A stretch of DNA of 57,456 nt from Candidatus Dojkabacteria bacterium (lineage in GTDB: Bacteria; Patescibacteriota; Dojkabacteria; B142; JAFGMG01). The notes under the pieces were generated by a model. It was not told where the DNA came from and ran no database searches. It saw only the letters and a program-made list of their open reading frames with translations. Shown in pieces: positions 3,661 to 55,000 of this stretch. Within the stretch, counting starts at the first letter, position 1. Every line of letters begins with the position of its first letter. Made by a program: the position numbers and the translations under genes. The stretch covers positions 1 to 57,456 of the forward strand of contig JAFGMG010000003.1 in NCBI GenBank assembly GCA_016927655.1, given 5' to 3'.

Positions 3661-3752
3661 GTCTTTCCAATCACAGAGAGAGGCTTATATTGGACAAGTT
3701 TAAAAGTACGCGAACCAATGCTGAAAAGGCCTTATTTGGAAAGACTTTTTTT
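3661..3752 (+). ncRNA. Candidate small structured RNA or regulatory hairpin (strand and function uncertain)
   Basis: GTCTTTCCAA (3661..3670) is perfectly complementary to TTGGAAAGAC (3736..3745) and is followed by a T7 run. TTGACC (3625..3630) and TAGTAT (3649..3654) lie upstream on the same strand. The element sits between two minus-strand genes. Confidence 0.25.
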
Positions 3753-5844
3753 ATTTTGAAGTAAGTATCTCAACTTTGATTTTACCAGCAGAAGGCATCG
3801 ATTTCATAAACCCAGGCAGGAAAAACGGTCCTACAGACAAATTATAATCTTCAACGCCTTCTTTGCTGTTTAAATATTCTTTTGCAGCACCAATTGATTT
3901 ACCGGCAAGCTCATTTGATATCTCCTCTTCGGTGAAATCAGCAGTGATATCCCCCTGTGAATCAATCTGGAATTTTATTTCATTTTCTCCAGGCACGACA
4001 TTGATGATTTCCACATTATCAAGTGCATCCAAATCCACCTCTCCTTCAAATTCACTTTCTGATTTAATAATTTCTGAGACAATCTGCTTCAGCTCAGCCT
4101 CTTTTACAAAATATGCTGTCGCTTCAAGCTCCAGACTTACGGTCACATTGTCGGCTTTTTCGCCGGCCTTGGCATCTGAAGATGATTTCGGCGTTCCATA
4201 AGTTATTGTTTCTTCAAGAAGAACCTCATCATCCGCAACAGAATCCCTGAACTCGTTTAGCAGTCTATTCTTCAGCTCATCGACTAGACCATCTTCCAGA
4301 TCAGTGATGTCTTTTTCACTAACGGCTCTCTCTTCACTCGTGTCCCCGCCCTCAATACTCCCAAAGCTTTTTGCACTTAATTCATCTGTAGTAAAGCCGT
4401 CAAATTTATAGCTTGCAGTTCCGCTGGTATTGTACTTCTCCCCGAAACTATCTGCTTGTATCGAAACATCTTTTTTGACACCAAGATTGAGATTATCCGC
4501 GCCGTCTACAACAGCGGCCGGAACTGCAGTAGCGGCCAACACCCTGTATTTCAAGCCTGTAGAAATATTTTCCATCAAAGCGCCCGCTGGCAGATTTATT
4601 TCCTCTTCTTTTTTGTTATAAATCGTCACAAGACCCTGAGCCCTATTTCCATCTTCGACATTTCCAGTCGTATCCGTCGTATTCGAGCTGCTATCGCTTA
4701 TCTTCAATGGATAAACAGGAATGACCAAATTTTCAACATTTATCTCGCTGCCGCCGATTTCTCCAGTGATCTCTTTGCTCACAGCAACATTTTGAGCTTT
4801 TGTATATATTTTCAAACTTGCAGTATTGAACACAAACATCGATAAGAATATTAAGACCAGGAGAGAAATCCCTGCAGTTACGGCTATTTTCAACCTTGTA
4901 TTACCCGTGCTATAAAACAGCTTGATTCGCTGTAAAGCCCTATTAATTGGATTATCAGCGGGAATGACAGGAGTTTTTGGACCCCTGGAAAAGTCCTGCT
5001 GCATTCTTCTCTTTCTTGGATTCTCCGGCACTATTTTCGAGAGATCTCTTCCAATCAAACTTGCGGTGTCCAACCCCGCTTCTTCTTCAAATTCCTCTTC
5101 CTCTTCAAATTTTTGTTCATTTTTATCTTGCTGTTTTTCCTTTTCTTCTTCTATTTCTTCTTCATTCTCTTTTAAAATATTTTCACTTCTAATATCTACT
5201 TCATCTTTTTTTTCTATTCTCCCATCAAGAACTCCGGGATCTTTTTTTTCTGTCTCCAGAAGTTCTTTTTGGAATTTTTCGTTAATCTCAATATCTCCGC
5301 CAGCCAAGACTTTGATATTTCCAAGATTTACTATTTTTGGGTCCAGTCTTGGTTTCTGGGACATTGGAGGAGTGTAGACAGGCTGGTTTGATAATTGAGC
5401 CTCAGCTTCCTGCTGAGCCTTCTTTGCTTCTTCCTGTCCTTTAGGTGTTTCTTTCGAATTGTTATCGATTATCTGGTAGTTATCTGTTTCCTGTCTGCTG
5501 CTAATAAGCTCATTTTTCAATTTTCTTCTTTCTTCTTGAAACTTCTTTTTCTTTTCTTCTGCCTGGACCCAGACATCAGGACCAATCTGGCTGATTTTTT
5601 CTTTTGAAATCAAACCCGCTTTTTCGGATAGTTTCAATCCAAGTTTATCTTCAGTAACAAGGATAATCAGCTTATTTGACTTGGCGATCTGGCTGGATAG
5701 AAGTTTCAAACTTATCAAACTCGCTACAAGGTTGGCACTTTCAGGTACTACGACTATCACCCTATCACTCGCAGCTTGTGCGATTTTTTCAACTGTAAAA
5801 ACTATTTCCTCATCAAGATCGACGAAGATTTTGTCACTTGCCAT
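3751..5844 (-). CDS. Bitopic membrane protein of unknown function, immediately downstream of the ftsA-like gene
   Basis: 697-aa ORF with four parts: a ~95-aa N-terminal globular domain, a long K/E-rich low-complexity linker, one TM helix (IAVTAGISLLVLIFLSMFVF) and a ~350-aa extracytoplasmic domain. It starts 5 nt after the ftsA-like stop. Confidence 0.7.
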   Translation of the reverse strand: MASDKIFVDLDEEIVFTVEKIAQAASDRVIVVVPESANLVASLISLKLLSSQIAKSNKLIILVTEDKLGLKLSEKAGLISKEKISQIGPDVWVQAEEKKKKFQEERRKLKNELISSRQETDNYQIIDNNSKETPKGQEEAKKAQQEAEAQLSNQPVYTPPMSQKPRLDPKIVNLGNIKVLAGGDIEINEKFQKELLETEKKDPGVLDGRIEKKDEVDIRSENILKENEEEIEEEKEKQQDKNEQKFEEEEEFEEEAGLDTASLIGRDLSKIVPENPRKRRMQQDFSRGPKTPVIPADNPINRALQRIKLFYSTGNTRLKIAVTAGISLLVLIFLSMFVFNTASLKIYTKAQNVAVSKEITGEIGGSEINVENLVIPVYPLKISDSSSNTTDTTGNVEDGNRAQGLVTIYNKKEEEINLPAGALMENISTGLKYRVLAATAVPAAVVDGADNLNLGVKKDVSIQADSFGEKYNTSGTASYKFDGFTTDELSAKSFGSIEGGDTSEERAVSEKDITDLEDGLVDELKNRLLNEFRDSVADDEVLLEETITYGTPKSSSDAKAGEKADNVTVSLELEATAYFVKEAELKQIVSEIIKSESEFEGEVDLDALDNVEIINVVPGENEIKFQIDSQGDITADFTEEEISNELAGKSIGAAKEYLNSKEGVEDYNLSVGPFFLPGFMKSMPSAGKIKVEILTSK

Positions 5845-16178: not shown

Positions 16179-16651
16179 TGGTGGAGATGGGGGTATTGAA
16201 ACCCCGTTCAAGAAATATTGCTAGTTGCCTCTACATGTGTAGACTATTTGTTTCAGACGGGTCAGGATAAAAATAGTCAAAAACCAAAACCCGACTGTTT
16301 AGATTAGTGCTTCGAAATTATCCCGCTAAACAAACGAAATAATCCCTGCGCCCAGGCTAAATTACGCTTGAAAAATTCCACCTGAGAAGAAAGTTTCAAA
16401 CGGGCTTAAGAGGGAGCCAAGGGCTCAACCGGTTAAGCAGCTACAGAAAATGAATTGAACTGTAGACCAGAGAACATTACTCTAGCTCCAGCAACAATTT
16501 CATTAACTGTATTGGTGATTCTGTTTTTGACGGTTATTTGTGGTCAGTGCCAGAAACGGCACTACTTGCATCTTACATTTACGAGCTGAGATACAAGAAA
16601 AGCTCGACACGCAGCAAAAAACATATATTCCCTGTCAAATCGCGCATCCCC
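16179..16651 (-). ncRNA. ssrA: tmRNA (SsrA), one-piece, about 473 nt
   Basis: On the minus strand the 5' end reads GGGGATGCGCGATTTGACAGGG (compare B. subtilis GGGGACGUUACGGAUUCGACAGGG). The 3' end reads GGGGTTTCAATACCCCCATCTCCACCA, giving a T-arm, acceptor strand, discriminator A and CCA. The acceptor helix GGGGATG/CATCTCC contains the G3-U70 alanine identity pair. An internal reading frame ends ...AAT TCA TTT TCT GTA GCT GCT TAA (..NSFSVAA stop; TAA at 16435..16433). Confidence 0.85.
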
Positions 16652-19831: not shown

Positions 19832-22800
19832 ATGCTACCAAAAGGACCATACAATTCCGGAAATACTGAGCCAGAGATTTTGAAATACTGGCTTGATGGG
19901 AAATTTTTTAAACCTGAATATCATCCTGAACGCGGTCTTCTTTCGACGGAAGAAATGAAAACGGATGGCAGAGAGCCGTTTTGCATAGTTAATCCCCCGC
20001 CAAATGCCTATATGAGACCGCATATTGGAAATGTCTCAGGATACGCTTACCAAGATGTCTTCCTCAGGTACAACAGGATGAAAGGCAAAAAAGTCCTTGG
20101 CCAGCCCGGAAAAGATCACGCAGGAATCCAAGGAGAAGTCGTTTTGGAGAAAATTTTCTGGGAAAACAAAAAAAAGACGAAACAGGACATGGGCCGTGAC
20201 AAATTCTACAAGGCTTCATACTCACATTTCCTAAAGCTCATGCCGATGGTAATGGCTGATGAGCAAAGAATCGGATTATCAAGCGATTATGATCGTAATA
20301 TTTTCACACTTGATCCGAAAATCGTAAAAACTGTTTTAGGGACATTTACAAAAATGTTTGAAGACAAGATGGTTTACAAGGGAGTAAGGATTGTAAACTG
20401 GGATCCTATTGCAAAAACCACACTTGCTGACATTGATACGGAACGCGAAGAAAGAGACGGAGAGCTGGTTTATATCAATTATCCTATTGCCGGCGAAAAC
20501 AAAAAGCCAAAAATAAAAACTATTGTTTTTGACATTTACGGAGTTGTTGTAAAGGCAGATGAGCAAAAAACAATTGATCAGGAAATTATCGCGCTCATTA
20601 AAGATTTGAAGCATCAAAATTATAAAATCGGGCTTTTATCAAATACTAAAGAAGAAAATCTTGTTGAGCATGACAGTGATGGCCAATATTTAAAGCTATT
20701 CGATTTCCAGTATTTCGCGGCAGATACAAATAATCCGAAACCAGATCCAAAAGCCTACGAGAAATTTGAAGAAAAGTATAGTTTAAAACCAGAAGAGATT
20801 TTATTTATTGATGATAATATTGAAAATCTTTCGCCTGCAAAAAAACGCGGGTGGATAACTTTTCATTATCAGGATAATACAGAAAATCTGAAAAAATTTA
20901 TCGAGACTGGCCGGGAATACCTAACCGTCGCTACCACCCGCGCAGAAACTATGCTTGGAGATACTGCCGTTGTCATAAATCCAAAGGACGAAAGATACAA
21001 GGATCTAATCGGAAAGAAGTTAATTTTACCGCTCGTTGACCGGGAAATTCCAGTTATCACCTCCCCTCATGTTGATATGGAATTTGGAACAGGTGCTGTC
21101 AAACTTACCCCTGCTCACTCCATGGACGACTACAAAATGATGAATGAATGGAATGTTGAAAATGGTGAAGAAAAAAAAGTCGGATATATAAATGTCATCG
21201 ACAAAGATGCCAAGATGACCGGACCGATTCCTGAAAAATATAAGGGCCTAACTACTGAAGAATGCCGAGAAGAAATTAGCAAAGACCTGGAAAAACAAGG
21301 CTTAATTGTCAAACGCGAGCCGCACAAAATGAACGTCATGATCGGAGAGAGATCAAAAGCCGTAGTTGAGCAGATTATGTCTTCTCAGTGGTTCATTGAT
21401 GTAGAAAAACTAAAGCAGCCTGCAATTGATGCTGTCAAAAATGGCGAAGTGCAGATTCATCCTGATTATATGAAGAAAAAATATCTTCATTGGATGGAAA
21501 ATCTCCATGACTGGCCGGTTTCCAGATCGCTTTGGTGGGGATATAGAATACCGGTTTGGTACAAAGGTGAAGTTAAAGAAGAAGTAAACCAGGAAACGGG
21601 GCAGATTATTGAAACCATCAACGGCGTTCAAGTAGATGGTATTTACGACGCGGTTGCAAAAGGTCTAGCTAAAGTGCAAATCGACGAGCCAGGATCGGAA
21701 AATCGAAAGAATTTATTCTTGATCCCAGGTAAACACGGGTATGCAAATAGGAAGCTCTTTCCAGAAATCAAAAATGAATATCCTCATGCAGCAATTTTGG
21801 ACGTAAAAGGATTAGATGACCCAGAATACAAAAATTATGTCGACGAGTTTAAGAAATATGACTTTGATGAAGCCTCCATCATTGTCGCCCACTCTTTAGG
21901 AACAAGGGCTATTCTAAGGTATTTGCTAGACAATAAAATCAAAGTAAACAGTTTAATAATGCTTGCTCCAGGATGTAGGAAGCCAAGATCAAATGGACGA
22001 GATCAAAAATATCTAGATTTAATCACAAATGCTCACGACTATGACCAATTGAAAGATCTAATTAAAAACATTGACATCGTGTATTCAGATAACGACGAAT
22101 TGATGACCCTGAAAAATTTTGAAGATTTTGTAAAGCTTATCCCTGGAGCAAAGGCCCATTTAGAGAAAAATAAAATGCATTATGCTAGCTCTGACTATGG
22201 GAATAGATCAGAAATAGTTAAAGGACTGCTTAAAGAAAAACTTGATGCGAATATTGAAAACAATTTGACCAAATTCACAGTCGTCCGCCACGCACAGACC
22301 GATCACAACAAAATAAAAGCTTTCTGCGGCTCGCTTGATCCCAAACTCAATAGAACCGGGCAGGTTCAAGCCGAGATGTTTGCCAGGACACTCAAAGAAT
22401 CAAACGAAAAATACGACATGATCATCAGCTCCGATCTGAAACGCGCAAAAGAAACTGCAGAAATTATCGCAAAGGAGCTCAAATTAGAAGTTATCAGTAC
22501 AGAATTGATCAGAGAAAGAGATTTCGGAATTCTTGAAGGGAAAACATGGCAGCAGGTCGAAACAGAATATCCAAAACTCGCAAAGAAAATCGAAGAACAA
22601 TATCAGGAAGAAATTCCTGAAGGAGAAAGTATAAACAAAGTCGAAGACAGGGTGCGAGCATTCCTTGATATGATTCGCAATGATTATTCCGGTAAAAAAA
22701 TTCTTCTTGTCACACACTTTGGAATAATCAGAATCCTAAAAAGAGAATTATTAGGCGAAACTCCAGAAGAATCAAGGAAAGGCCAGATAGACAATCTTCA

Positions 22801-23659
22801 GAGATTTGAGATGAGAATCAAACCAGAATCTGACTGGATTCAGGATCTAGATGTTTTTGATACATGGTTCTCCTCTGGTCAGTGGGCTTACGCGCCCTTG
22901 ATCGCAAATGACTTGATCGATACTTTCTACCCAACAGACATTATGGAGACTATGCATGACATTTTAGAATTGTGGGTAAGCCGGATGATGATGCTAAGTC
23001 TTTATACTCAAAAGAAAATTCCATTTAAACATGTTTATCTGCATGGAATGGTTAAAGCCGCCGATGGACAGAAAATGAGTAAATCTAAAGGGAATGTAGT
23101 TCTTCCCGAAGAAATAATCGAGAAATATGGCGCAGATTCCCTGAGACTAATGTATCTGGTTGGGAATAAAGCCGGAGCAAGCTACCCTGTCAGCTATGAA
23201 AAACTCGAAGGCTATAAAAGATTTCTGAATAAAATCTGGAACGCAAGCAAATTTGTGCTCTCGAACACGGAGAATATCAAACCTTCAGACAAAAGCTCAA
23301 ATAAAGAAGATAAAAAACTACTAAGAGAGCTCATGACACTCAAGCAGACCATTATCAGACATATCGACAATTACCGTATTGGAATGGCAGCAGAGGAGCT
23401 CTACAGCCATTTCTGGCACTATTTCTGTGATGTGTTCCTCGAAGAGGTTAAACCGAGATTGTATACAAAAGACAGGGAAGGTAATCCAATAAATCAAGGA
23501 CCAAAGGAACAGAAATCAAGAAAAGAAGCTCAATCTGTTCTACTTTATGCCCTTAGAGAATACATGAAAATGCTAAATCCTTTCATACCATTTATTACAG
23601 AGAGGATTTGGCAGGAAATTGAGCCTGAAAAAACGATTATGTATGAATCGTGGGTTTAA
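19832..23659 (+). CDS. valS: Valyl-tRNA synthetase with three inserted enzyme-like domains (HAD-like, alpha/beta hydrolase-like, histidine phosphatase-like) and no C-terminal coiled coil
   Basis: ValRS motifs in order: PPPNAYMRPHIGN, GKDHAGIQ, TTRAETMLGDTAVVINP, GTGAVKLTPAH, WPVSRSLWWGYRIPVWY, DVFDTWFSS, KMSKS and an anticodon-binding domain. The extra segments lie at aa 229-360 and aa 624-997. See findings. Confidence 0.9.
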   Translation: MLPKGPYNSGNTEPEILKYWLDGKFFKPEYHPERGLLSTEEMKTDGREPFCIVNPPPNAYMRPHIGNVSGYAYQDVFLRYNRMKGKKVLGQPGKDHAGIQGEVVLEKIFWENKKKTKQDMGRDKFYKASYSHFLKLMPMVMADEQRIGLSSDYDRNIFTLDPKIVKTVLGTFTKMFEDKMVYKGVRIVNWDPIAKTTLADIDTEREERDGELVYINYPIAGENKKPKIKTIVFDIYGVVVKADEQKTIDQEIIALIKDLKHQNYKIGLLSNTKEENLVEHDSDGQYLKLFDFQYFAADTNNPKPDPKAYEKFEEKYSLKPEEILFIDDNIENLSPAKKRGWITFHYQDNTENLKKFIETGREYLTVATTRAETMLGDTAVVINPKDERYKDLIGKKLILPLVDREIPVITSPHVDMEFGTGAVKLTPAHSMDDYKMMNEWNVENGEEKKVGYINVIDKDAKMTGPIPEKYKGLTTEECREEISKDLEKQGLIVKREPHKMNVMIGERSKAVVEQIMSSQWFIDVEKLKQPAIDAVKNGEVQIHPDYMKKKYLHWMENLHDWPVSRSLWWGYRIPVWYKGEVKEEVNQETGQIIETINGVQVDGIYDAVAKGLAKVQIDEPGSENRKNLFLIPGKHGYANRKLFPEIKNEYPHAAILDVKGLDDPEYKNYVDEFKKYDFDEASIIVAHSLGTRAILRYLLDNKIKVNSLIMLAPGCRKPRSNGRDQKYLDLITNAHDYDQLKDLIKNIDIVYSDNDELMTLKNFEDFVKLIPGAKAHLEKNKMHYASSDYGNRSEIVKGLLKEKLDANIENNLTKFTVVRHAQTDHNKIKAFCGSLDPKLNRTGQVQAEMFARTLKESNEKYDMIISSDLKRAKETAEIIAKELKLEVISTELIRERDFGILEGKTWQQVETEYPKLAKKIEEQYQEEIPEGESINKVEDRVRAFLDMIRNDYSGKKILLVTHFGIIRILKRELLGETPEESRKGQIDNLQRFEMRIKPESDWIQDLDVFDTWFSSGQWAYAPLIANDLIDTFYPTDIMETMHDILELWVSRMMMLSLYTQKKIPFKHVYLHGMVKAADGQKMSKSKGNVVLPEEIIEKYGADSLRLMYLVGNKAGASYPVSYEKLEGYKRFLNKIWNASKFVLSNTENIKPSDKSSNKEDKKLLRELMTLKQTIIRHIDNYRIGMAAEELYSHFWHYFCDVFLEEVKPRLYTKDREGNPINQGPKEQKSRKEAQSVLLYALREYMKMLNPFIPFITERIWQEIEPEKTIMYESWV

Positions 23660-24342
23660 ATAATTTTAGCCTCTTCTTGTATGCGTGCCACTACTTCGTC
23701 AGCCTCAGATTGATTGAAAAGTTCTAGATATTTATTTGGGCATCCCACATCGGACAACATAGCAATATTCCCAAAAAGATGATATGCCTTAGCTGCTTTG
23801 GGCCAGATTAATGCATCTTCCGGAAGTTCCTGACTACACAGTATTAAATTTAAATCCCCTTCGGGCAGATCTCTTAACATCCCCCAGTATCCCCCAATGG
23901 TTGTAACATTTCTCAATTCTTCCTCCAGATTCACTCGATTTTGCCCTCCTTGATTGATCTGCGTTTCGAGAAATGCCTTGATAGGAATACTTGTATTTTG
24001 AGCAGCAATCACCCTATGAGGAGCACTTGTGTATTGATTTAAGAGCCTGGTGCGAGTCACGGAAGGCAGGCTGGTTTGACTCACCAGTCTGCCGTTCAAA
24101 TCCAAAATCTCTTCAATGGGCACGCCCATTGCTATACAATTTCCTAACTCTCCTGTGTCAATCTGAATCAATCTATTTACTAGATCATGCGTATTCTTGA
24201 TGGCCTGCGGTAAAACCAAACCATTACCAAGCAATTCTAATACCAATCCAGCTTTTCGCGACGATACTCCATGAAGAGTACTCCCGACAGAAATCAATTC
24301 TGCTGGCCGGAATTGCGGTGATTGCCTAAGCTCTGGAAGCAT
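23656..24342 (-). CDS. Hypothetical protein, translationally coupled to tatD
   Basis: 228-aa ORF whose ATG overlaps the tatD stop (TAATG at 24340-24344). No recognisable motif. By eye the composition is less AT-rich than the neighbours. Confidence 0.55.
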   Translation of the reverse strand: MLPELRQSPQFRPAELISVGSTLHGVSSRKAGLVLELLGNGLVLPQAIKNTHDLVNRLIQIDTGELGNCIAMGVPIEEILDLNGRLVSQTSLPSVTRTRLLNQYTSAPHRVIAAQNTSIPIKAFLETQINQGGQNRVNLEEELRNVTTIGGYWGMLRDLPEGDLNLILCSQELPEDALIWPKAAKAYHLFGNIAMLSDVGCPNKYLELFNQSEADEVVARIQEEAKII

Positions 24343-25253: not shown

Positions 25254-27413
25254 TTAGTCAAAGAGTTGCGGGGCCACGTCTATCAATGTTTCTCCAAGAT
25301 TATCCTCTCCAACGGATAATTTATAAATTCCGTTATGATCTGTTCCTATGCCGATTTCATCTTCTGCCAGAATCATACCAGCGGATTCAATTCCCCTTAT
25401 ATTTTTCTTTTCCAGGCGAACTTTCTTTCTTTCATTTAGTAATAATCCAGGAATTAGCTCCCCTTCGCCAAGAAATGGCACGATGTCGCCAACCTCGATA
25501 TTCTCGGCGCCAGTTACGATTGTTTGCTCTTTTTTTCCGTCAGTAACAGCCACAAGAAGCAATCGATCAGCATCAGGATGCTTTTCAATTTTTGTGATTT
25601 TGACAATTTTAATTGGCTTTAGAAGTGCTTCTCTATCGATCTCTTCTCCCTCTTCTTCTAGAATTGGAATATCACTTTCCTCAAATTTTCTAAATAACGG
25701 TCTCACCTCGCCAAGTCTTGGATAGCCGGTAATTGACTCAAATCTAAAAAGATCTTTTCCAACTGCTGGTTCTTCAACATCAACACCCAGCATTTCGGAT
25801 AGTCTTTTAAATGCCTCTGGGAAGAACGGCCTAATGAGAATTCTTAGAGCTTCGACGATATTGAGTAAATTGTACATTTCATTCTCAGCTTTAACCTTAT
25901 CTTCTTTAATCAACTCCCAAATCTTAGAATCGTTGAAATAACTATTCCCCTGGCTGGACAAATTATTCATTAACGTTTCTAGAGCTAATGAAAATTTACA
26001 TTCATCTAAATACTTACCGATTAAATCTATCTTGTTTTTAAATTCAATTTCCAATTCACCTTTCAATTCGCGATTCTCAAAGTTTTTCTTATAAAAAACT
26101 AACGTCCTGTTTATAAAATTTCCCAGATTCGCTACCAGTTCGTTATTATTTGCATCCACGAATCTCTGCCAGGTGAAATTTGATTCTTTATTCTCGGGCA
26201 GATTACTTAAAATATAGTACCTGACAGCATCAGTGCCAAATTTGTCAGCAATTTCTTTAGAATCAACAATATTTCCCCTGCTCTTAGAAAACTTTGCATT
26301 GTTAAAGTTCATAAATTTATTTACAGCCACATTTCGCGGCAGTGTATAGCCTTTCTCAGCCCCTATTAATTGCCCCGGCCACATCAAAGCGTGGAAAACA
26401 AGATTGTCCTGCCCCATGAAATAATAGTGTTCAGACTCCTCATCGAGCCACCATTCTTTCCAGTCCTTTGACTGCCCGGCATATTCGCGGAAAATATAAT
26501 CACCGTTCACATCCTTTTTCATCTCATTCAAAGAACCTTTCGCGTATTCACTCCACTCTTGCGGAGCAGATAAATAACCAGTAACCGCCTCAAACCAGAC
26601 GTAAATTTTCTTTTTGTCAATATTTTCGATTAATTTATCCTGTGGAATTCTATCTTTTGGCAATTCAATCCCCCAATCGATATCACGAGTGATCGCTCTT
26701 TTCTGCATTCCTTCATTGAGCCAGCCAGCAGCTTCTTTGTAAACCCAGTTTCTCCAAACCTCAGACTTCTTCACTCCATCTAGCTTTCCCTCCAGATAAT
26801 CCTCCAATTTCCCTTGAAGTGCTCCAAAATCCAGGAAATAGTGCTCAGTATCTTTCAGTTCGACTTTTTCGCCGGTTTTTCTGCTCACCGGATCAATCAG
26901 CTCCCCATCGTTTAGCCATCTTCCGCAATTCTCACACTGATCAGCCCTTTGCTCTGTTGCTTTGCAATGCGGACAGGTCCCTTCTACGTACCTATCCGGC
27001 AGAAATTCATCATCTTCGGCACTATAATATTGCTTTGTCACATCTTTAATGATGAAGTCATTATTTAGCAGATCAATAAACAAATCTTGAACAACTTTTT
27101 TGTGATTTTCCGTTGTCGTTTTTGTATATAAACTGTAATCCAGATCGTACTGTTCAAAAAGTTCAATGTCTTTTTTGTGATATTTCTCAATAACTTCCTG
27201 CGGAGTTATCCCTTCTTTGTCAGCCTGCACAGTAATAGGTGTGCCGTGACAATCAGAACCCGAGACCATCAGGACATCATTTCCCCGCAGTCTCTGATAT
27301 CTGGAGAATACATCCGCTGGCAACAAGTATCCTGCCAAATGCCCAACGTGAATATTTCCATTTACATAAGGCCATGCGACTGCGATAAGAATTTTCTTTG
27401 ACAAGAGAATCAA
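25254..27413 (-). CDS. metG: Methionyl-tRNA synthetase with a C-terminal tRNA-binding (Trbp111/EMAP-like) domain
   Basis: AWPYVNGNIHVGHLAGY (HIGH); zinc knuckle CPHCKATEQRADQCENCG; KFSKSRGN (KMSKS). The C-terminus has KIEKHPDADRLLLVAV...IRGIESAGMIL. The start appears to be TTG at 27413, as there is no in-frame ATG before HIGH. Confidence 0.93.
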   Translation of the reverse strand: MILLSKKILIAVAWPYVNGNIHVGHLAGYLLPADVFSRYQRLRGNDVLMVSGSDCHGTPITVQADKEGITPQEVIEKYHKKDIELFEQYDLDYSLYTKTTTENHKKVVQDLFIDLLNNDFIIKDVTKQYYSAEDDEFLPDRYVEGTCPHCKATEQRADQCENCGRWLNDGELIDPVSRKTGEKVELKDTEHYFLDFGALQGKLEDYLEGKLDGVKKSEVWRNWVYKEAAGWLNEGMQKRAITRDIDWGIELPKDRIPQDKLIENIDKKKIYVWFEAVTGYLSAPQEWSEYAKGSLNEMKKDVNGDYIFREYAGQSKDWKEWWLDEESEHYYFMGQDNLVFHALMWPGQLIGAEKGYTLPRNVAVNKFMNFNNAKFSKSRGNIVDSKEIADKFGTDAVRYYILSNLPENKESNFTWQRFVDANNNELVANLGNFINRTLVFYKKNFENRELKGELEIEFKNKIDLIGKYLDECKFSLALETLMNNLSSQGNSYFNDSKIWELIKEDKVKAENEMYNLLNIVEALRILIRPFFPEAFKRLSEMLGVDVEEPAVGKDLFRFESITGYPRLGEVRPLFRKFEESDIPILEEEGEEIDREALLKPIKIVKITKIEKHPDADRLLLVAVTDGKKEQTIVTGAENIEVGDIVPFLGEGELIPGLLLNERKKVRLEKKNIRGIESAGMILAEDEIGIGTDHNGIYKLSVGEDNLGETLIDVAPQLFD

Positions 27414-51643: not shown

Positions 51644-52033
51644 ATGATAATTCTTTCGATTGATTATGGAACGAGACATGTAGGACTTGCAATCAGCGAT
51701 GAGCGTGAGATCGTTGCAATGCGCCTTCCGAGCCTTACTATCAAAAGACCAAATGATCTAATAGAAGGCTTGAAAGCTTTAAGAAAAAATATAGTCTTTG
51801 AAAAAATACTTCTTGGCCTACCGGATAAAGGTGAAAATAGAGGGAAAATCCAAGAAATTGCAAAAACTATCCAAAAAGAATTAGATATTCCAGTTGAATT
51901 CTGGAATGAGGACTTCTCTTCTAAATCTGCTGAAAAAGGCACAAGCAAAAAATTCAAGAAAGAAAAAGCACACTCCGAGGCTGCTAGAATATTTCTTCAG
52001 GAATATCTGGAAGACCGCTCAAGTGAGTCTTAA
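51644..52033 (+). CDS. ruvX: YqgF/RuvX-like putative pre-16S rRNA nuclease (Holliday junction resolvase-like)
   Basis: MIILSIDYGTRHVGLAISD at the internal ATG 51644. The tracked start at 51551 would overlap yidD and add a hydrophobic non-homologous extension. C-terminal DE.FSS..A motif. Confidence 0.85.
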   Translation: MIILSIDYGTRHVGLAISDEREIVAMRLPSLTIKRPNDLIEGLKALRKNIVFEKILLGLPDKGENRGKIQEIAKTIQKELDIPVEFWNEDFSSKSAEKGTSKKFKKEKAHSEAARIFLQEYLEDRSSES

Positions 52034-55000
52034 TTGACATATTTTCTCAAATCCTTCGTTCTGATTCTATTGAAAATAAATATTGTAACCAGGAAGTACA
52101 ATATGAGACCAAGTGTGGTGGCTTGAAGTGCCTTATTGATTCCTCCGCTGCCTGCATCCGCAACCATAATAGAAATTGAGTCAGGATCAATTATATTACC
52201 TCCTTCGGTTGTACTAAATTTATGCCAGGCATCATAGACATAGTTATTCCCATTACTCATCACTTCATAATAGTATTCCTGCCCAGGTTCAAGATCAGTA
52301 ATAATTACCTGATGAACTTTTGTTTTCCTGTCATATTCAACCGACTCGCCATAATCAAGTGAATCACCGTAATTAACTTTGCTTGTTGCCAAGTGATTAG
52401 TTTTCCATTCAATCACAGCATAATTATCACCCTTCTCGACAACTTGAACATCAGAGATCGCTGTAGCTTCTTTATCAAACCATAAATCCCAAATTGCCAC
52501 GACCTTACTATACGAATCTGCAAAAAGCGGTCTAACCACATTTTCATTTATACCCCGATTTATATCGGCTGCCACTTCTGGCACATGTGTTAAAACAAAA
52601 TTGCCGAGTGTATTTGCTATGACCTCTGCATTATTTGCCAGTTCATTTGCGGCATACCTAATGAGGTCCAATAAACCACTTCTCAGTCCCCTACTAAAAC
52701 CAAACAAATTATTCTGCAAATCAACCAGATAGTTTACGGAGCCTCCAATAACACCACCTAAATTTTCGCTTATTATCTTTAATCCTTCGCTTACAACTCC
52801 GCGTACACCCTGTACAACGTTTTGCAAAATTCCACCTTCATTGCTGCTATCTAGATTGTTTATTAAATCAGACGCATTATCATTATTAATTATAATTTCC
52901 TCTAATTCATCCACATTAAGATCCGTAATATCACCCACAATCTCCAAAGTTTTAGTTGTTTCAGTTATGTTCCCTAATTTGTCATATGCTTTTAAAATAA
53001 TCTGGTATTCACCTGCCTCAAAACTTTCGGAAGGACTGAATGAGAAATCGGCATATTTATCACTGACATTGAGCGTATTATCCGTTATTATATTCTCATT
53101 GTAACTCCAATAAATGTCTGGGAAATTATTTACGGCAGTAAGTATTGTAGTTGTGCTGCCGCCTTGTAATTTGTTTATTGTCATAACAACTTTCAGCGGA
53201 CCGACAGCAGCTTTTTCCCCAGATCCGGATAGTTGATCGACAACCCTACCACTTATTGAGATACTAGTATCCAAAGTCTTTGAACTTGAATCAGTGGAAC
53301 CGTTTATTTTGACATCTTGGAGAGATGGAGCATGAAAATCCGCAAAGAACTCAACTTCTGTTGAGCTGAAATTCCCCACACCATCATAGGCAATAACCTC
53401 AAGACTGTTGATTCCTTCTGATAAATTCCCATTGTTGCGACCTGCACCCCAATTCGAAGAAGATTTCGTACTTAAGCTAATAATATCATTTAGAGGATCA
53501 GGGTCATTAAAATTTGAATAATATATATTGTACTTGTCAGTATTTACCGTAGAAGCAGCATAGCTATTGACTGGATAGACTTCTATTGCCGAATTTAAGG
53601 TAAATCTATATCTTATTACGTCATCTGAGTACCTTGAAAACCAAGAGAAACTAGGACGTGGATTATTCATATATGTTTTTGAAGCCGGATTAATTATTGC
53701 AGGGAGTTCCGGATCACTAAGATCTATCCTGACTTCACCAAGTTCAGAAAAACCTGACTGCACTCCAAGCTCGCTTACCACCGAAAGCCTTGCATACCAG
53801 GTCCCTTCGACCAGATCAATAAGATGAGTATAAGTCAGCTCTGATACTAGGATAGTATTACTTTCACATCCTGAGAAATTCGAATTATCACACCATTCAA
53901 ACTTATACTGATAAGTTATGCCTGATTCACCAGAAAATTCATTCCAAATCCAAATTGGCTTTGTGTCACTTGTAGGTGTTTCAGTAACCGGGACATCTGG
54001 GACTCCTTCAATTTCAGCATCAAGAACAAGCGAACCTGTGTTTGAATATTCTGAATAATTTCCCGCTATATCCCTTGCTCTCACTCTTGCATACCATGTT
54101 CCATCTGCCAGATTACTAGTATGAGTATATGTTGGAGTGTCAGAATTTGCGGCCGAAACACCCGAACTGAATGTCTGACTCTGCGACCACTCCAATCTGT
54201 AATAATCAATGTCAACGGCCGTTGCCGCTTCCCACTCCCAAGTTGGTGTTTTATCCATGGTAGGACTGTCTGCTATTGGGGTGCCAGGAATATCAGGGTC
54301 TGAAATATCAATCGTTATGTCTGATGAAACCGAATAATCAGATTCCAATAAAGCTCTGTCAACACCTTTCACCCTTATATAGTAAGTACCTTCAGAACTT
54401 TCCGGCAAGGTGAAGTTATTTACACTTCTGTTTGAAATATTTGCATCACATCCGGTATAAGCTTCATTGTCACACCATTGAACTATATACGCATTAATCC
54501 CGGACCCTCCACTATCACTAGCTCCACTCCAATCCCATCTTGGAGTAGTATCATGAGTAGGGGTTGTTCTGGTAAAACTCGTTGGGGGCGTTGGCGGAAC
54601 GGTATCGATTATGGCTCTTGCATAATCACTGTAATACGATTCATTTCCGACACTATCAATTGCTTTTACTTTCACATACCACGAACCATCAGCAAGAGGT
54701 GACCCCGGAGTATACGAATTTGTAACTACATTAGTTTTGTTTGCATCACAATCCAGAAAATCTGACGCATCACACCACCAAATTTCATAATTTGAAATAT
54801 ATGCAGCATCTCCATCATCATAAACCGCATCCCACTCCCAAGTTGGTGTTGTGTCCTGTGTATAAGCATCAACCGTGACATTTGTTGGTGTGTCAGGGAG
54901 ATCAGTATCAATAATAACCGTCCCATAATCTGAATAGGCTGATTCATTACCAACTTTGTCAACTGCCTTTACTTTATAATACCAGGTTCCATCTGCTAGA

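What the first reader, a model, noticed from the sequence alone, without database searches (positions are those of the whole stretch)
21701..22822. Tandem alpha/beta serine-hydrolase-like and histidine-phosphatase-like modules inserted between the ValRS WWGYRIPVWY and DVFDTWFSS motifs
In E. coli ValRS about 45 residues separate RIPAWY from DVLDTWFSS. Here the gap is about 430 residues.

The first module (aa ~624-810) resembles YdeN/RBBP9-type serine hydrolases:
- LFLIPGKHG.
- Nucleophile elbow IIVAHSLGT (Ser688).
- IVYSDNDELM (Asp).
- KMHYASS (His783).

The second module (aa ~812-997) resembles the phosphoglycerate-mutase/histidine-phosphatase superfamily:
- FTVVRHAQTDHN (the RHG-type motif, Arg819-His820).
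- ISSDLKRAKETAEII.
- ERDFGILEG.
- LLVTHFGIIR (His962).

Two complete catalytic modules in the connective-peptide region of a class I synthetase is very unusual.
Basis: partly seen in the sequence, partly recalled or inferred. Interest (0 to 1): 0.75.

Follow-up and report, generated by a model that had tools for sequence, protein, structure and literature searches.

The report
Enzyme domains nested inside valyl-tRNA synthetase
The valyl-tRNA synthetase of this tiny uncultured (Dojkabacteria/CPR) bacterium carries a complete serine esterase and a complete histidine phosphatase spliced in-frame into one surface loop. This is one case of an apparently undescribed habit of CPR Val/Leu/Ile synthetases of hosting small hydrolase domains.

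Summary
Observation confirmed. ORF 19832-23659 (+, 1275 aa) is a valS equivalog. In insert-free relatives 53 residues separate WWGYRIP from DVFDTWFSS; here 432 do. The extra 378 aa (S622-E999, nt 21695-22828) sit at the tip of a native hairpin.

They form two confidently folded modules:
- A YdeN/RBBP9-type serine hydrolase (PF06821; triad S688/D755/H783).
- A branch-1 histidine phosphatase (PF00300, E=6e-48; R819/H820/R871/E895/H962).

The catalytic residues are at least 90 % conserved over 32 embedded copies of each module. A third guest, a cap-less HAD domain, sits at the start of the editing domain.

The gene is the syntenic housekeeping valS of a Candidatus Dojkabacteria bacterium. Its relatives show two insertion hot spots. 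Their cargo varies among Ser hydrolase, His phosphatase, GNAT, HAD and Ham1, and is gained, lost and swapped between close relatives.

The nearest relatives of the Ser-hydrolase module are almost all embedded in ValRS, LeuRS or IleRS, with one in UvrB. MetRS from the same genomes carries none.

Best reading: these are tethered, active accessory hydrolases, dispensable for aminoacylation and probably tied to Val/Leu/Ile-synthetase chemistry. Their substrates are unknown. I found no description in the literature searched.

The parts
19832..23659 (+). valS: single ORF of 1275 aa, the housekeeping valine--tRNA ligase that hosts three guest domains
   Evidence: ORF. NCBIfam valS equivalogs are above cut-off. 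PHIGN starts at aa 63, KMSKS at 1081, and the editing motifs TTRAET at 368 and GTGAVK/TPAHS at 419/426. The synteny PRTase-Metallophos-valS-x-TatD-metG is shared with the insert-free orthologue P0021 and the insert-bearing P0007.
19832..20494 (+). ValRS core, N-terminal half of the Rossmann fold (aa 1-221)
   Evidence: Aligns to T. thermophilus ValRS residues 31-206 and to core-HMM positions 2-227.
20507..20902 (+). Guest 1 at site A, the start of the CP1 editing domain: a cap-less HAD-like domain, aa 226-357
   Evidence: Pfam HAD_2 E=3.8e-15 and Hydrolase E=4.1e-12. The closest solved relatives are the soluble-epoxide-hydrolase N-terminal phosphatase and YihX, matching only their core after the cap. 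Motif I is D234-x-Y236, motif III is K303, motif IV is D327-D328.
20909..21694 (+). ValRS CP1 editing domain, the following core, and the native hairpin up to P620-G621 (aa 360-621)
   Evidence: Aligns to 1gax residues 206-419. The editing residues are nearly invariant across guest-bearing relatives.
21695..22828 (+). Site-B insertion, aa 622-999 (378 aa): the tandem guest cassette of the finding
   Evidence: Boundaries come from comparison with the insert-free relatives P0021, P0047 and P0061 and from the core HMM. AlphaFold2 of aa 585-1010 gives pLDDT 92.0 and pTM 0.77.
21707..22264 (+). Guest 2: YdeN/RBBP9-type serine hydrolase (PF06821), aa ~626-811. Triad codons: S688 at 21893-21895, D755 at 22094-22096, H783 at 22178-22180
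   Evidence: Pfam 34.5 bits against GA 22. AF2 pLDDT 94.2, pTM 0.91. Foldseek: YdeN 1uxo TM 0.83/0.85, RBBP9 0.71-0.79. Profile against PDB: YdeN E=5e-11, RBBP9 E=1.5e-5, with the triad aligned. S688, D755 and H783 are invariant in the alignments of embedded copies.
22265..22825 (+). Guest 3: branch-1 histidine phosphatase (PF00300), aa 812-998. Catalytic codons: R819-H820 at 22286-22291, R871 at 22442-22444, E895 at 22514-22516, H962 at 22715-22717
   Evidence: Pfam E=6.1e-48. PDB phmmer: PspA 4ij5 E=2.3e-22, with catalytic residues aligned. Foldseek top hits are 4ij6, 4ij5, 9mmh and GpgP. Catalytic residues are at least 94 % conserved in 32 embedded copies.
22829..23656 (+). ValRS core C-terminal part: second half of the Rossmann fold (DVFDTWFSS, KMSKS) and the anticodon-binding domain, aa 1000-1275
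   Evidence: Aligns to 1gax residues 448-705. Pfam Anticodon_1 covers aa 1160-1274.

Best explanation
SHOWN
- This is the organism's ordinary, syntenic valyl-tRNA synthetase (Candidatus Dojkabacteria, CPR/Patescibacteria). Its synthetic, editing and anticodon-binding parts are intact.
- At the tip of a native surface hairpin between WWGYRIP and DVFDTWFSS, a 378-aa cassette is translated in frame. In T. thermophilus ValRS this position begins with a Cys-x-x-Cys.
- The cassette is a lid-less YdeN/RBBP9-type serine hydrolase whose C-terminal helix runs straight into a PhoE/PspA/CobC-like histidine phosphatase.
- Both modules fold as complete globular domains and keep every catalytic residue.
- Their chain ends meet again at the hairpin, so the host fold is not interrupted.
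- Orthologues without the cassette exist, so it is not needed for aminoacylation.

INFERRED
- The modules are not excised. They work as active enzymes tethered to the synthetase.
- By analogy with RBBP9, the serine hydrolase cleaves an alpha-aminoacyl ester, thioester or amide that has a free alpha-amine. RBBP9 is an aminopeptidase that requires a free alpha-amine, and a paper title cites it as a valacyclovir-activating enzyme.
- The phosphatase removes a phosphomonoester through a phospho-His820 intermediate.
- They sit in ValRS because of a functional tie to the chemistry of the editing class Ia synthetases (Val/Leu/Ile). That tie would be clearing, or supplying, aminoacyl and nucleotide small molecules made or used next to the enzyme. 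I think this more likely than pure accident.

LIKELIHOODS
- Anatomy and identity of the parts: about 0.95.
- The modules are catalytically active: about 0.8.
- A functional link to Val/Leu/Ile-synthetase chemistry rather than mere hitch-hiking: about 0.45-0.5.
- The actual substrates are unknown.
For: Identity and integrity:
- valS equivalog scores, core motifs and alignment to 1gax.
- Synteny with insert-free and insert-bearing orthologues.
- No second ValRS and no module paralogue in the 57 kb window.
- A second assembly of the same organism is 100 % identical over 22.9 kb.

Folds:
- Two-module model: pLDDT 92.0, pTM 0.77. Ser-hydrolase model: pLDDT 94.2, pTM 0.91.
- Foldseek finds PspA, HFP and GpgP for the phosphatase, and YdeN and RBBP9 for the hydrolase.

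Selection for activity:
- R819, H820, R871, E895 and H962, and S688, D755 and H783, are at least 90 % conserved across 32 embedded copies of each module.
- Those copies are otherwise only 31-49 % identical to the window's.

Host specificity:
- An exhaustive phmmer of the Ser-hydrolase module against 1.84 billion representative proteins gave 150 hits.
- I Pfam-scanned 20 of the hits longer than a free-standing copy. 19 are ValRS, LeuRS or IleRS (whole or fragments) and 1 is UvrB.
- Two further hits, P0044 and P0073, were already known as ValRS from the first search, so 21 of 22 hosts are these synthetases.
- The 120 nearest MetRS relatives carry no guest catalytic domain. Many come from contigs of the same length as guest-bearing valS contigs.
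- Among the 120 nearest ValRS clusters, 52 carry a guest at site B.

Repeated assembly:
- Two deeply separated Ser-hydrolase clades occupy the same position upstream of the phosphatase in closely related ValRS. Core identity is 66-84 % but module identity only 33-38 %.
- The embedded phosphatase clade has its own conserved residues that are absent from free-standing CPR relatives: R896, W906, Q925, V937, R967, R971, L973 and R982.

Chemistry of the family:
- RBBP9 requires a free alpha-amine (PMC8866121).
- The reference 'RBBP9 as a valacyclovir-activating enzyme' is cited in PMC7730578.
- The CP1 editing motifs stay nearly invariant in guest-bearing ValRS, so the guest adds to editing rather than replacing it.
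Against: - No activity, substrate or expression data exist.
- The guest repertoire is chemically heterogeneous: esterase, two kinds of phosphatase, Ham1, NUDIX and GNAT. This looks more like a general set of small house-cleaning enzymes than one pathway.
- Presence and absence are patchy between near-identical cores. The function is therefore dispensable, or supplied otherwise.
- The guests evolve much faster than the host: 33-49 % identity against 66-84 %.
- One Ser-hydrolase guest sits in UvrB, which has nothing to do with aminoacyl chemistry.
- The nearest free-standing phosphatases are generic CPR 'broad specificity phosphatase PhoE'-type proteins at 35-42 % identity.
- The host bias could instead reflect unusual tolerance of the connective-peptide loops shared by Val/Leu/Ile synthetases.
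- I could not obtain model coordinates, so nothing is known about where the active sites point relative to the tRNA or the synthetic and editing sites.
Confidence: 0.5

Rival explanations
1. Pure hitch-hiking. The modules are ordinary, autonomous house-cleaning or scavenging enzymes with no functional relation to ValRS. They became nested in a long, essential, constitutively expressed gene whose connective-peptide loops tolerate insertions. Nesting gives them expression without their own promoter. It also protects them from the deletion bias of a reduced genome, because only a precise in-frame deletion is viable.
For: - The guests are heterogeneous: HAD, Ham1, NUDIX, GNAT, Ser hydrolase and His phosphatase.
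- Gain and loss are patchy on the ValRS tree.
- The modules evolve fast.
- GC3 is lower in the HAD (0.26) and Ser-hydrolase (0.33) modules than in the core (0.41). This suggests later acquisition or weaker codon constraint.
- There is a UvrB host.
- The free-standing CPR phosphatases are nearly as similar (35-42 %) as the embedded copies (42-49 %).
Against: - The host bias is strong: 21 of 22 identified hosts are Val/Leu/Ile synthetases.
- MetRS relatives, many from contigs of the same length as guest-bearing valS contigs, have 0 of 120 with a guest.
- RpoB and RpoC in the window show no guest families.
- The same Ser-hydrolase-then-phosphatase order was assembled with two different Ser-hydrolase clades.
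- The embedded phosphatases carry clade-specific conserved arginines.
Confidence: 0.3
2. The modules act on the tRNA itself. The serine hydrolase would be an extra aminoacyl-tRNA deacylase, a second editing site, for example for mischarged or D-aminoacyl-tRNA. The histidine phosphatase, and the cap-less HAD domain, would remove a 3'- or 2'-phosphate left on damaged tRNA ends so that the CCA end can be recharged.
For: - An aminoacyl-tRNA is an alpha-aminoacyl ester with a free amine, the substrate type of RBBP9.
- The hosts are the three editing class Ia synthetases.
- In LeuRS the guests flank the editing domain, according to the Pfam coordinates.
- The HAD guest has lost its cap. From my own knowledge, cap-less HAD enzymes tend to take macromolecular substrates.
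- The embedded phosphatase clade has extra conserved arginines.
Against: - The CP1 editing site is fully conserved, so there is no obvious need for a second one.
- The modules are not basic: pI 7.0 and 8.0, with net charge about 0.
- I know of no member of PF06821 or branch-1 His_Phos that acts on tRNA.
- Ham1, NUDIX and GNAT guests do not fit a tRNA-end repair scheme.
- The UvrB host does not fit.
- The geometry is untested.
Confidence: 0.12
3. The modules are inert decoration. They would be former enzymes that now serve only as bulk, solubility tags or interaction surfaces.
For: - They are dispensable in orthologues.
- Their sequences drift fast.
- The HAD guest has Tyr in place of the general acid/base Asp of motif I.
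Against: All catalytic residues of both site-B modules are at least 90 % conserved across 32 copies that are otherwise 31-49 % identical. Neutral decay of a catalytic apparatus would not produce this.
Confidence: 0.04
4. The insert is not part of the mature protein or is not real. It would be an assembly chimera, an intein-like element removed after translation, or an intron removed from the mRNA.
For: The distribution resembles that of inteins: essential host genes, conserved sites, patchy presence, and a guest that evolves faster than its host.
Against: - No Hint/intein or endonuclease domain was found.
- The junctions are G621|S622 and E999|S1000, with no C-terminal His-Asn, and there is no Cys at either junction.
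- No Rfam intron or ribozyme lies in the gene.
- The frame is continuous.
- The same architecture occurs in many independent metagenomes from JGI, ENA, NCBI and Logan.
- A second assembly gives an identical sequence.
Confidence: 0.02

Closest known systems
Bacterial valine--tRNA ligase (class Ia; T. thermophilus ValRS, PDB 1gax/1ivs)
   Same: - Full catalytic core, CP1 editing domain with its conserved Thr-rich and GTG/TPAH..D motifs, KMSKS and the anticodon-binding domain.
- Equivalog-level NCBIfam scores.
   Different: - Three complete guest domains totalling about 510 aa, at two loop positions.
- The hairpin that hosts the tandem has no Cys. T. thermophilus has a Cys-x-x-Cys at its start.
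- HIGH reads HIGN, as in all relatives of this family.
- There is no long C-terminal extension: 1gax aligns only up to its residue 705 of 862.
YdeN (B. subtilis, 1uxo) / RBBP9 (human, 2qs9, 7oex): Pfam PF06821 lid-less serine hydrolases
   Same: - Size of about 190 aa and an alpha/beta-hydrolase fold without a lid.
- Ser-Asp-His triad in the canonical positions, with an xHSxG nucleophile elbow.
- TM 0.83/0.85 to YdeN and 0.71-0.79 to RBBP9.
   Different: - Only 15-20 % identical to the solved members.
- Embedded inside another enzyme rather than free-standing.
- The residues RBBP9 uses to hold the alpha-amine (S76, Y99, E108) are not demonstrably conserved. S76 corresponds to L689, and the E108 region is a variable loop.
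- Substrate unknown.
PspA-type phosphoserine phosphatase / PhoE / CobC-like branch-1 histidine phosphatases (4ij5, 9mmh, 4pz9)
   Same: - The fold and the complete catalytic set: Arg-His nucleophile motif, second Arg, Glu proton donor and second His.
- 34 % identity to 4ij5.
- Short form without the C-terminal tail of dPGM mutases.
   Different: - Below the equivalog cut-off of every named NCBIfam subfamily: CobC 128.2 against 162.9, PspA 108.5 against 350, GpmB 78.7 against 261.
- The motif is RHA rather than RHG.
- It has clade-specific conserved residues.
- It is embedded.
Synthetases with extra catalytic or accessory domains: NCBIfam NF040702 'isoleucine--tRNA ligase, N-acetyltransferase domain-containing'; from my own knowledge, the ProRS INS domain and appended domains of eukaryotic synthetases
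   Same: A class I synthetase carries an additional enzyme domain in one polypeptide. The NF040702 model exists in NCBIfam and matched this protein only through its synthetase core.
   Different: - Here the guests are nested inside loops of the catalytic and editing body, up to three per protein.
- They come from a varied set of hydrolase families and are swapped between close relatives.
- I found no paper describing this.
Inteins (in-frame selfish insertions in essential genes)
   Same: In-frame insertion at conserved sites of essential genes, patchy distribution, and a guest that evolves faster than its host.
   Different: No Hint domain, no splicing junction residues and no homing endonuclease. 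The guests are ordinary enzyme folds with conserved active sites and are presumably retained in the mature protein.

Membership tests
Valine--tRNA ligase (class Ia aminoacyl-tRNA synthetase) | Scores above the curated equivalog cut-off of the valS models | tested here: met
   NF004349 scores 740.1 bits against a cut-off of 704. TIGR00422 scores 698.8 against 612.1.
Valine--tRNA ligase (class Ia aminoacyl-tRNA synthetase) | Class I signature motifs HIGH and KMSKS | tested here: met
   KMSKS starts at aa 1081. HIGH reads P-H-I-G-N, starting at aa 63, a variant shared by all relatives of this family.
Valine--tRNA ligase (class Ia aminoacyl-tRNA synthetase) | CP1 editing domain with the Thr-rich motif and the GTG...TPAH..D motif | tested here: met
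   TTRAET at 368 and GTGAVK/TPAHS at 419/426. These residues are nearly invariant in guest-bearing relatives. The region aligns to the isolated T. thermophilus editing domain 1wka/1wk9.
Valine--tRNA ligase (class Ia aminoacyl-tRNA synthetase) | It is the organism's housekeeping copy (orthologous locus, sole copy) | tested here: inconclusive
   Synteny with insert-free and insert-bearing orthologues is conserved, and there is no second ValRS in the 57 kb window. The rest of the genome could not be searched.
Histidine phosphatase superfamily, branch 1 (Pfam PF00300) | Pfam score above the gathering threshold over the whole domain | tested here: met
   163.5 bits against 21.7; aa 817-1000 match profile positions 3-185 of 194.
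Histidine phosphatase superfamily, branch 1 (Pfam PF00300) | Catalytic core: Arg-His(-Gly) with the nucleophilic His, a second Arg, a Glu proton donor and a second His | tested here: met
   R819-H820-A821, R871, E895 and H962 align with the corresponding residues of PspA 4ij5. They are 94-100 % conserved in 32 embedded copies. The third motif position is Ala, not Gly.
Histidine phosphatase superfamily, branch 1 (Pfam PF00300) | The fold | tested here: met
   AF2 pLDDT is mostly 92-98 over the module. Foldseek against 4ij5/4ij6 gives E about 1e-14, TM(target) 0.76-0.80 and rmsd 2.3-3.6 A.
Named phosphatase subfamilies (CobC alpha-ribazole phosphatase, PspA phosphoserine phosphatase, GpmB, dPGM) | Score above the curated equivalog cut-off | tested here: not met
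   CobC scores 128.2 against 162.9, PspA 108.5 against 350, GpmB 78.7 against 261, and dPGM-type models 57-63 against 81.7-316. No substrate can be assigned.
YdeN/RBBP9 serine hydrolases (Pfam PF06821) | Pfam score above the gathering threshold | tested here: met
   34.5 bits against 22, E=2.4e-8. A profile of embedded copies against the PDB gives YdeN E=5.2e-11 and RBBP9 E=1.5e-5.
YdeN/RBBP9 serine hydrolases (Pfam PF06821) | Lid-less alpha/beta-hydrolase fold of about 190 residues | tested here: met
   AF2 pLDDT 94.2 and pTM 0.91. The top nine Foldseek hits are YdeN, RBBP9 and a YdeN-like hydrolase, with TM 0.71-0.85. Hydrolases with lids score lower.
YdeN/RBBP9 serine hydrolases (Pfam PF06821) | Ser-Asp-His triad at the canonical positions: elbow after beta5, acid after beta7, His after beta8 | tested here: met
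   S688/D755/H783 align with RBBP9 S75/D138/H165. In the model they lie directly after strands 683-687, 744-752 and 774-778. They are invariant in the alignments.
YdeN/RBBP9 serine hydrolases (Pfam PF06821) | Hydrolysis of alpha-aminoacyl substrates with a free amine (the RBBP9 activity) | not testable with these tools
   Only literature on RBBP9 is available. Its amine-binding residues are not clearly conserved here.
HAD superfamily phosphatases (guest 1, outside the finding) | Four motifs: I DxD, II S/T, III K, IV DD/ED | tested here: inconclusive
   Pfam HAD_2 scores 56.9 bits against 23.8. Motifs II (LLSNT), III (K303) and IV (D327-D328) are present. Motif I is D234-x-Y236, so the Asp+2 acid/base is replaced by Tyr, conserved in all 6 HAD guests. 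The cap is missing.
Inteins | Hint domain; Cys/Ser/Thr at the N-terminal junction; His-Asn followed by Cys/Ser/Thr at the C-terminal junction | tested here: not met
   There is no Hint or endonuclease Pfam hit. The insert ends ...IKPE999 and is followed by S1000, with no His-Asn. The whole insert is accounted for by two enzyme folds.

The most novel reading that the evidence does not exclude
CPR bacteria have turned their editing class Ia synthetases (ValRS, LeuRS, IleRS) into modular clean-up stations.

- Exchangeable guest cassettes (aminoacyl-ester hydrolase, phosphatases, Ham1/NUDIX pyrophosphatases, GNAT) are plugged into two or three permissive loops.
- They act on aminoacyl or nucleotide species generated by, or aimed at, these enzymes.
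- Candidate substrates are released non-cognate aminoacyl-adenylates or esters, homocysteine-thiolactone-type editing products, and aminoacyl-nucleotide antibiotics from host or competitor bacteria.
- The guests would form an extra, evolvable layer of quality control or self-protection beyond the classical double sieve.
Probability: 0.2. Interest if true: 0.9.

Novelty: new variant of a known kind. Interest (0 to 1): 0.72.

Why it matters
Bacterial aminoacyl-tRNA synthetases are regarded as architecturally conservative. Extra catalytic domains are rare, and they are usually editing modules.

Here a single ValRS carries three complete foreign enzyme domains nested in loops of its catalytic and editing body. 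The survey shows this is systematic:
- There are two insertion hot spots in Dojkabacteria ValRS.
- The same guest families occur in LeuRS and IleRS of CPR bacteria, those that carry a name being Gracilibacteria.
- Cassettes are swapped between close relatives.
- The neighbouring MetRS carries none.

If the guests are functionally coupled to the synthetase, this would be a new, modular form of translational quality control or self-defence in organisms with minimal genomes. If they are hitch-hikers, it is a clear natural example of how reduced genomes keep and express accessory enzymes by nesting them in essential genes. It would also give a map of insertion-tolerant sites in class Ia synthetases that protein engineers could use.

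Either way, the proteins are currently annotated only as 'valine--tRNA ligase' or 'class I tRNA ligase family protein'. Their extra enzymes are therefore invisible to metabolic reconstructions of CPR genomes.

Tried and rejected
1. Intein, intron or assembly artefact: rejected. There is no Hint domain, no junction residues, no Rfam hit and no frame break. The architecture recurs in many metagenomes. The 'second' contig L003 is 100 % identical, so it is only a second assembly of the same organism, not an independent population.

2. The Ser hydrolase as a replacement for a decayed CP1 editing site: rejected. The editing motifs are nearly invariant in guest-bearing ValRS.

3. A named substrate class for the phosphatase: not possible. 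It is below every equivalog cut-off.

4. The GNAT guests as MccE/RimL- or TacT-like enzymes that acetylate aminoacyl-nucleotides or aminoacyl-tRNA. This would have supported the inhibitor-detoxification idea. There is no support: the closest solved relatives of the P0078 GNAT are PaiA-type and unnamed acetyltransferases, E about 2e-5.

5. Looking for free-standing copies or a second valS in the same genome:
- The window has none.
- The genome-collection scan with the whole insert found nothing.
- The first alignment was too divergent to scan.
- A narrower alignment found only two loci, both embedded in large ORFs.
- Whole genomes could not be searched.

6. Position of the modules relative to the tRNA: not obtainable. 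The structure tools return no coordinates, and the full protein (1275 aa) exceeds the 1200-aa limit.

7. Literature: seven searches on synthetases combined with CPR, Dojkabacteria, Patescibacteria, insertions, histidine phosphatase, GNAT or PF06821 found no description of these architectures. One further search failed on syntax.

8. The word-index homology search with the phosphatase module returned only 35 free-standing proteins and missed the embedded copies. It cannot be used to count hosts of that module.

9. The ASCH assignment of the commonest ~120-aa site-A guest is only sub-threshold: E 0.003-0.03, below the gathering score.

Full report
THE OBSERVATION

The window carries one uninterrupted ORF at 19832..23659 (+) of 1275 aa. 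It is a valine--tRNA ligase:
- It passes both NCBIfam valS equivalog cut-offs, 740.1 against 704 bits and 698.8 against 612.1.
- It has PHIGN starting at aa 63, KMSKS at 1081, and the editing motifs TTRAET at 368 and GTGAVK/TPAHS at 419/426.
- It aligns with T. thermophilus ValRS (1gax) in three blocks: query 45-221, 360-580 and 1004-1274. The stretches 222-359 and 581-1003 are left unaligned.

WWGYRIP starts at aa 568 and DVFDTWFSS at aa 1007. That leaves 432 residues between them, against 49-53 in insert-free close relatives. Those relatives read ..VQxxSPG|EGWxQDxDVFDTW. The window reads ..VQIDEPG621|S622 ... E999|S1000-D-W-IQDLDVFDTW.

The native hairpin is therefore intact, and a 378-aa cassette (nt 21695-22828) sits exactly at its tip.

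WHAT THE TWO MODULES ARE

Pfam gives His_Phos_1 at aa 817-1000 (E=6.1e-48) and Ser_hydrolase PF06821 at aa 629-770 (E=2.4e-8, 34.5 bits against a gathering score of 22).

AlphaFold2 of aa 585-1010, with an alignment of 51 sequences, gives mean pLDDT 92.0 and pTM 0.77. The high pTM for a two-domain segment suggests a fairly fixed tandem. So does the way the last helix of the first module runs directly into the first strand of the second.

The histidine phosphatase:
- Foldseek against the PDB returns PspA phosphoserine phosphatase (4ij5/4ij6, TM-target 0.76-0.80), the riboflavin-pathway histidine-family phosphatase 9mmh, and glucosyl-3-phosphoglycerate phosphatases.
- The phmmer alignment to 4ij5 (E=2.3e-22) lines up R819-H820, R871, E895 and H962 with its catalytic residues.
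- It falls below every subfamily equivalog cut-off (CobC, PspA, GpmB, dPGM). It is a generic short-form phosphatase of unknown substrate.

The serine hydrolase:
- Modelled alone, it gives pLDDT 94.2 and pTM 0.91.
- Its nine best fold matches are YdeN (1uxo, TM 0.83/0.85, rmsd 2.3 A), RBBP9 (TM 0.71-0.79) and a YdeN-like hydrolase. Lidded alpha/beta hydrolases follow at lower scores.
- A profile of embedded copies hits YdeN at E=5e-11 and RBBP9 at E=1.5e-5.
- That alignment places S688, D755 and H783 on RBBP9 S75, D138 and H165.
- In the model the three residues lie right after the expected strands.

Over 32 embedded copies of each module, the catalytic residues are at least 90 % conserved, and S688, D755 and H783 are invariant. 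The copies are otherwise only 31-49 % identical to the window's. This is the signature of enzymes kept active.

A THIRD GUEST

The unaligned stretch 222-359 is a HAD-like domain (HAD_2 E=3.8e-15). It is inserted at the start of the CP1 editing domain.
- It matches only the post-cap core of the soluble-epoxide-hydrolase N-terminal phosphatase and of YihX.
- Its motif I is D234-x-Y236 instead of DxD. Motifs II-IV are normal.

NOT AN ARTEFACT AND NOT REMOVED

- There is no Hint/intein or endonuclease domain.
- There are no intein junction residues.
- No Rfam intron or ribozyme lies in the gene.
- There is no frame break.
- The same architecture occurs in clusters from JGI, ENA, NCBI and Logan assemblies.
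- A Logan contig is 100 % identical to window 9832-32773. This is a second assembly of the same organism rather than an independent population.

WHOSE GENE IT IS

Named relatives are Candidatus Dojkabacteria (candidate division WS6), a CPR/Patescibacteria lineage.

The gene order ComF-like PRTase, Metallophos, valS, x, TatD, metG is shared by the window, the insert-bearing P0007 and the insert-free P0021. This is therefore the orthologous housekeeping valS. The window holds no second ValRS and no paralogue of any module.

THE WIDER PATTERN IN ValRS

I mapped the 120 closest ValRS clusters onto a core HMM built from insert-free members. Two hot spots emerged.

Site A lies at core position about 225-230, the start of CP1. 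It is occupied in 61 of the 120 clusters by:
- HAD (6 clusters);
- Ham1 (2 clusters);
- at least two other ~100-125-aa domains with no significant Pfam hit. The commonest is weakly ASCH-like.

Site B is the hairpin of the finding. It is occupied in 52 of the 120 clusters by:
- His phosphatase alone (19);
- Ser hydrolase alone (17);
- Ser hydrolase + His phosphatase (12, including the window);
- Ser hydrolase twice (P0010);
- GNAT alone (P0078);
- GNAT + His phosphatase (P0094);
- GNAT + Ser hydrolase (P0118).

On a neighbour-joining tree of the core, presence and absence are patchy down to sister sequences.

The embedded phosphatases form one clade apart from 35 free-standing CPR relatives. 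That clade has its own conserved residues: R896, W906, Q925, V937, R967, R971, L973 and R982.

The embedded Ser hydrolases fall into two deep clades with different motifs. P0005 and P0007 have cores 66-84 % identical to the window's. Yet they carry the other clade at the same position upstream of the phosphatase, with module identity of only 33-38 %. The same tandem was therefore assembled, or its first half replaced, at least twice.

Module composition also differs. GC3 is 0.41 in the core, 0.40 in the phosphatase, 0.33 in the Ser hydrolase and 0.26 in the HAD domain. This is consistent with the phosphatase being the oldest guest.

BEYOND ValRS

An exhaustive phmmer of the Ser-hydrolase module against 1.84 billion representative proteins gave 150 hits at E<=1e-3.
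- Only 5 hits reach E<=1e-10, and all 5 are embedded in ValRS.
- Free-standing proteins of about 180-196 aa are only about 20-38 % identical.
- I Pfam-scanned 20 hits that are longer than a free-standing copy. Six are ValRS, ten LeuRS and three IleRS, counting fragments; one is UvrB. The two unnamed class I fragments (P0194, P0266) are counted with ValRS.
- One LeuRS has two hydrolase domains plus NUDIX, and another has Ham1 plus Ser hydrolase.
- Two of the IleRS (those with DUF5915) combine a His phosphatase with the Ser hydrolase.
- The UvrB has the module between its helicase lobes.
- Two further hits, P0044 and P0073, were already known as ValRS.
- The named examples are Candidatus Gracilibacteria.

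As a control I searched the window's MetRS. None of its 120 nearest relatives carries a guest catalytic domain. Many of them come from contigs of the same length as guest-bearing valS contigs, for example 58224, 49173, 61815, 31076 and 603881. Given the conserved valS-metG synteny, these are presumably the same contigs. RpoB and RpoC in the window also show only their own domains.

The guests are therefore concentrated in the three editing class Ia synthetases. They are not spread over large essential proteins in general.

HOW IT MOST LIKELY WORKS

Shown:
- The cassette is translated within ValRS.
- It is built of two complete, catalytically equipped folds.
- It enters and leaves at one point of a surface hairpin.
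- It is absent from functional orthologues, so it is not part of the aminoacylation mechanism.

Inferred:
- Both modules are active while tethered.
- For the Ser hydrolase, the best-studied family member is RBBP9. It is an aminopeptidase that strictly needs a free alpha-amine (PMC8866121). A paper title cited in PMC7730578 names it a valacyclovir-activating enzyme. From my own knowledge, valacyclovir is the L-valyl ester of a nucleoside analogue. An alpha-aminoacyl ester, thioester or amide is therefore the most plausible substrate type.
- The phosphatase should hydrolyse a phosphomonoester through phospho-His820.

I think a functional tie to Val/Leu/Ile-synthetase chemistry is somewhat more likely (about 0.45-0.5) than pure hitch-hiking (about 0.3). 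The tie would be clearing or supplying aminoacyl and nucleotide small molecules. My reasons are the host bias, the repeated assembly of the same tandem and the clade-specific conserved residues.

Against a tie stand:
- the chemical heterogeneity of the guests;
- their dispensability and fast evolution;
- the UvrB case;
- the possibility that the shared connective-peptide loops of these paralogous enzymes are simply unusually permissive.

Action on tRNA itself, as a second deacylase or as 3'-end phosphate removal, is possible. It is less likely (about 0.12): CP1 editing is intact, the modules are not basic (pI 7.0 and 8.0), and no family precedent is known to me. Inert decoration and excision are essentially excluded.

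COMPARISON WITH WHAT IS KNOWN

- The host is a bona fide ValRS.
- The guests are bona fide members of PF06821 and PF00300. The phosphatase belongs to no named subfamily.
- Synthetases with an added enzyme domain are known in annotation resources. NCBIfam NF040702 is an IleRS with an N-acetyltransferase domain.
- I found no paper describing hydrolase domains nested in ValRS, LeuRS or IleRS of CPR bacteria. Seven full-text searches returned nothing relevant.
- I therefore rate this a new variant of a known kind: an aminoacyl-tRNA synthetase with accessory domains. What is unusual is that the domains are nested, multiple and cassette-like.

LIMITS

- The trees are neighbour-joining trees without support values.
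- No model coordinates were available, so the geometry relative to the tRNA is unknown.
- The full protein exceeds the size limit of the structure predictor.
- Whole genomes could not be scanned for free-standing copies or a second valS.
- Nothing is known about expression or activity.

Noticed in passing
window 20507-20902 (aa 226-357 of valS): A third guest in the same ValRS: a cap-less HAD-like domain at the start of the CP1 editing domain. Motif I is D234-x-Y236 (Asp+2 replaced by Tyr, conserved in all 6 HAD guests). Motifs II-IV are normal. The closest solved relatives are the sEH N-terminal phosphatase and YihX.
   Followed up: partly
relatives P0011-P0016, P0022-P0027, P0030, P0050-P0058 and others, at the position equivalent to window aa ~225: Site A of Dojkabacteria ValRS also carries at least two other ~100-125-aa guest types with no significant Pfam hit. 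One has the motif 'G.KTIETRALNPEEP.RYFGDIK.GD' and is weakly ASCH-like (E 0.003-0.03, below the gathering score). The other has the motif 'ERNKTKDGK..LPF.FG...VIGIGY...VIGIQMRLDK.FRLVV'.
   Followed up: partly
proteins P0159, P0161, P0170, P0175, P0286 (LeuRS); P0177, P0209, P0303 (IleRS); P0181 (UvrB): The same guest families are nested in other proteins. LeuRS carries Ser hydrolase, NUDIX and Ham1 guests, before and after its editing domain. IleRS carries His phosphatase plus Ser hydrolase. One UvrB has a Ser hydrolase between its helicase lobes. The named examples are Candidatus Gracilibacteria.
   Followed up: partly
proteins P0005, P0007 and P0010 compared with window aa 626-811: There are two deeply separated clades of embedded Ser hydrolase: 'IPGKHGY...APGxR' and 'PGRxAPE...YPWAQI...SPSN..GFW'. 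Close core relatives of the window carry the other clade at the same site. P0010 carries one of each in tandem.
   Followed up: yes
window 19832-23659: GC3 differs between the parts of the gene: core 0.41, His phosphatase 0.40, Ser hydrolase 0.33, HAD 0.26. This suggests different ages of acquisition or weaker codon constraint in the guests.
   Followed up: no
window 25254-27413 (-): The neighbouring MetRS has a C-terminal tRNA_bind (Trbp111-like) domain but no guest enzyme. The public gene call starts later, giving 671 aa against the 719-aa ORF from TTG. None of its 120 nearest relatives has a guest domain.
   Followed up: yes
window 16179-16651 (-): A tmRNA gene matches the full 374-position Rfam model but spans 473 nt, so it carries about 100 nt of extra sequence. 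ARAGORN did not report it.
   Followed up: no
window 52030-57303 (-): A 1757-aa ORF has Big_13 and fibronectin-III-like domains, probably a large surface protein. The 697-aa ORF at 3751-5844 and the 228-aa ORF at 23656-24342, directly downstream of valS, have no Pfam hit at E<=1e-5.
   Followed up: no
window aa 63-67 of valS (nt 20018-20032): The class I HIGH signature reads H-I-G-N. The His and Gly are nearly invariant and the consensus reads RPHIGNVSGYAYQD in this ValRS family.
   Followed up: no
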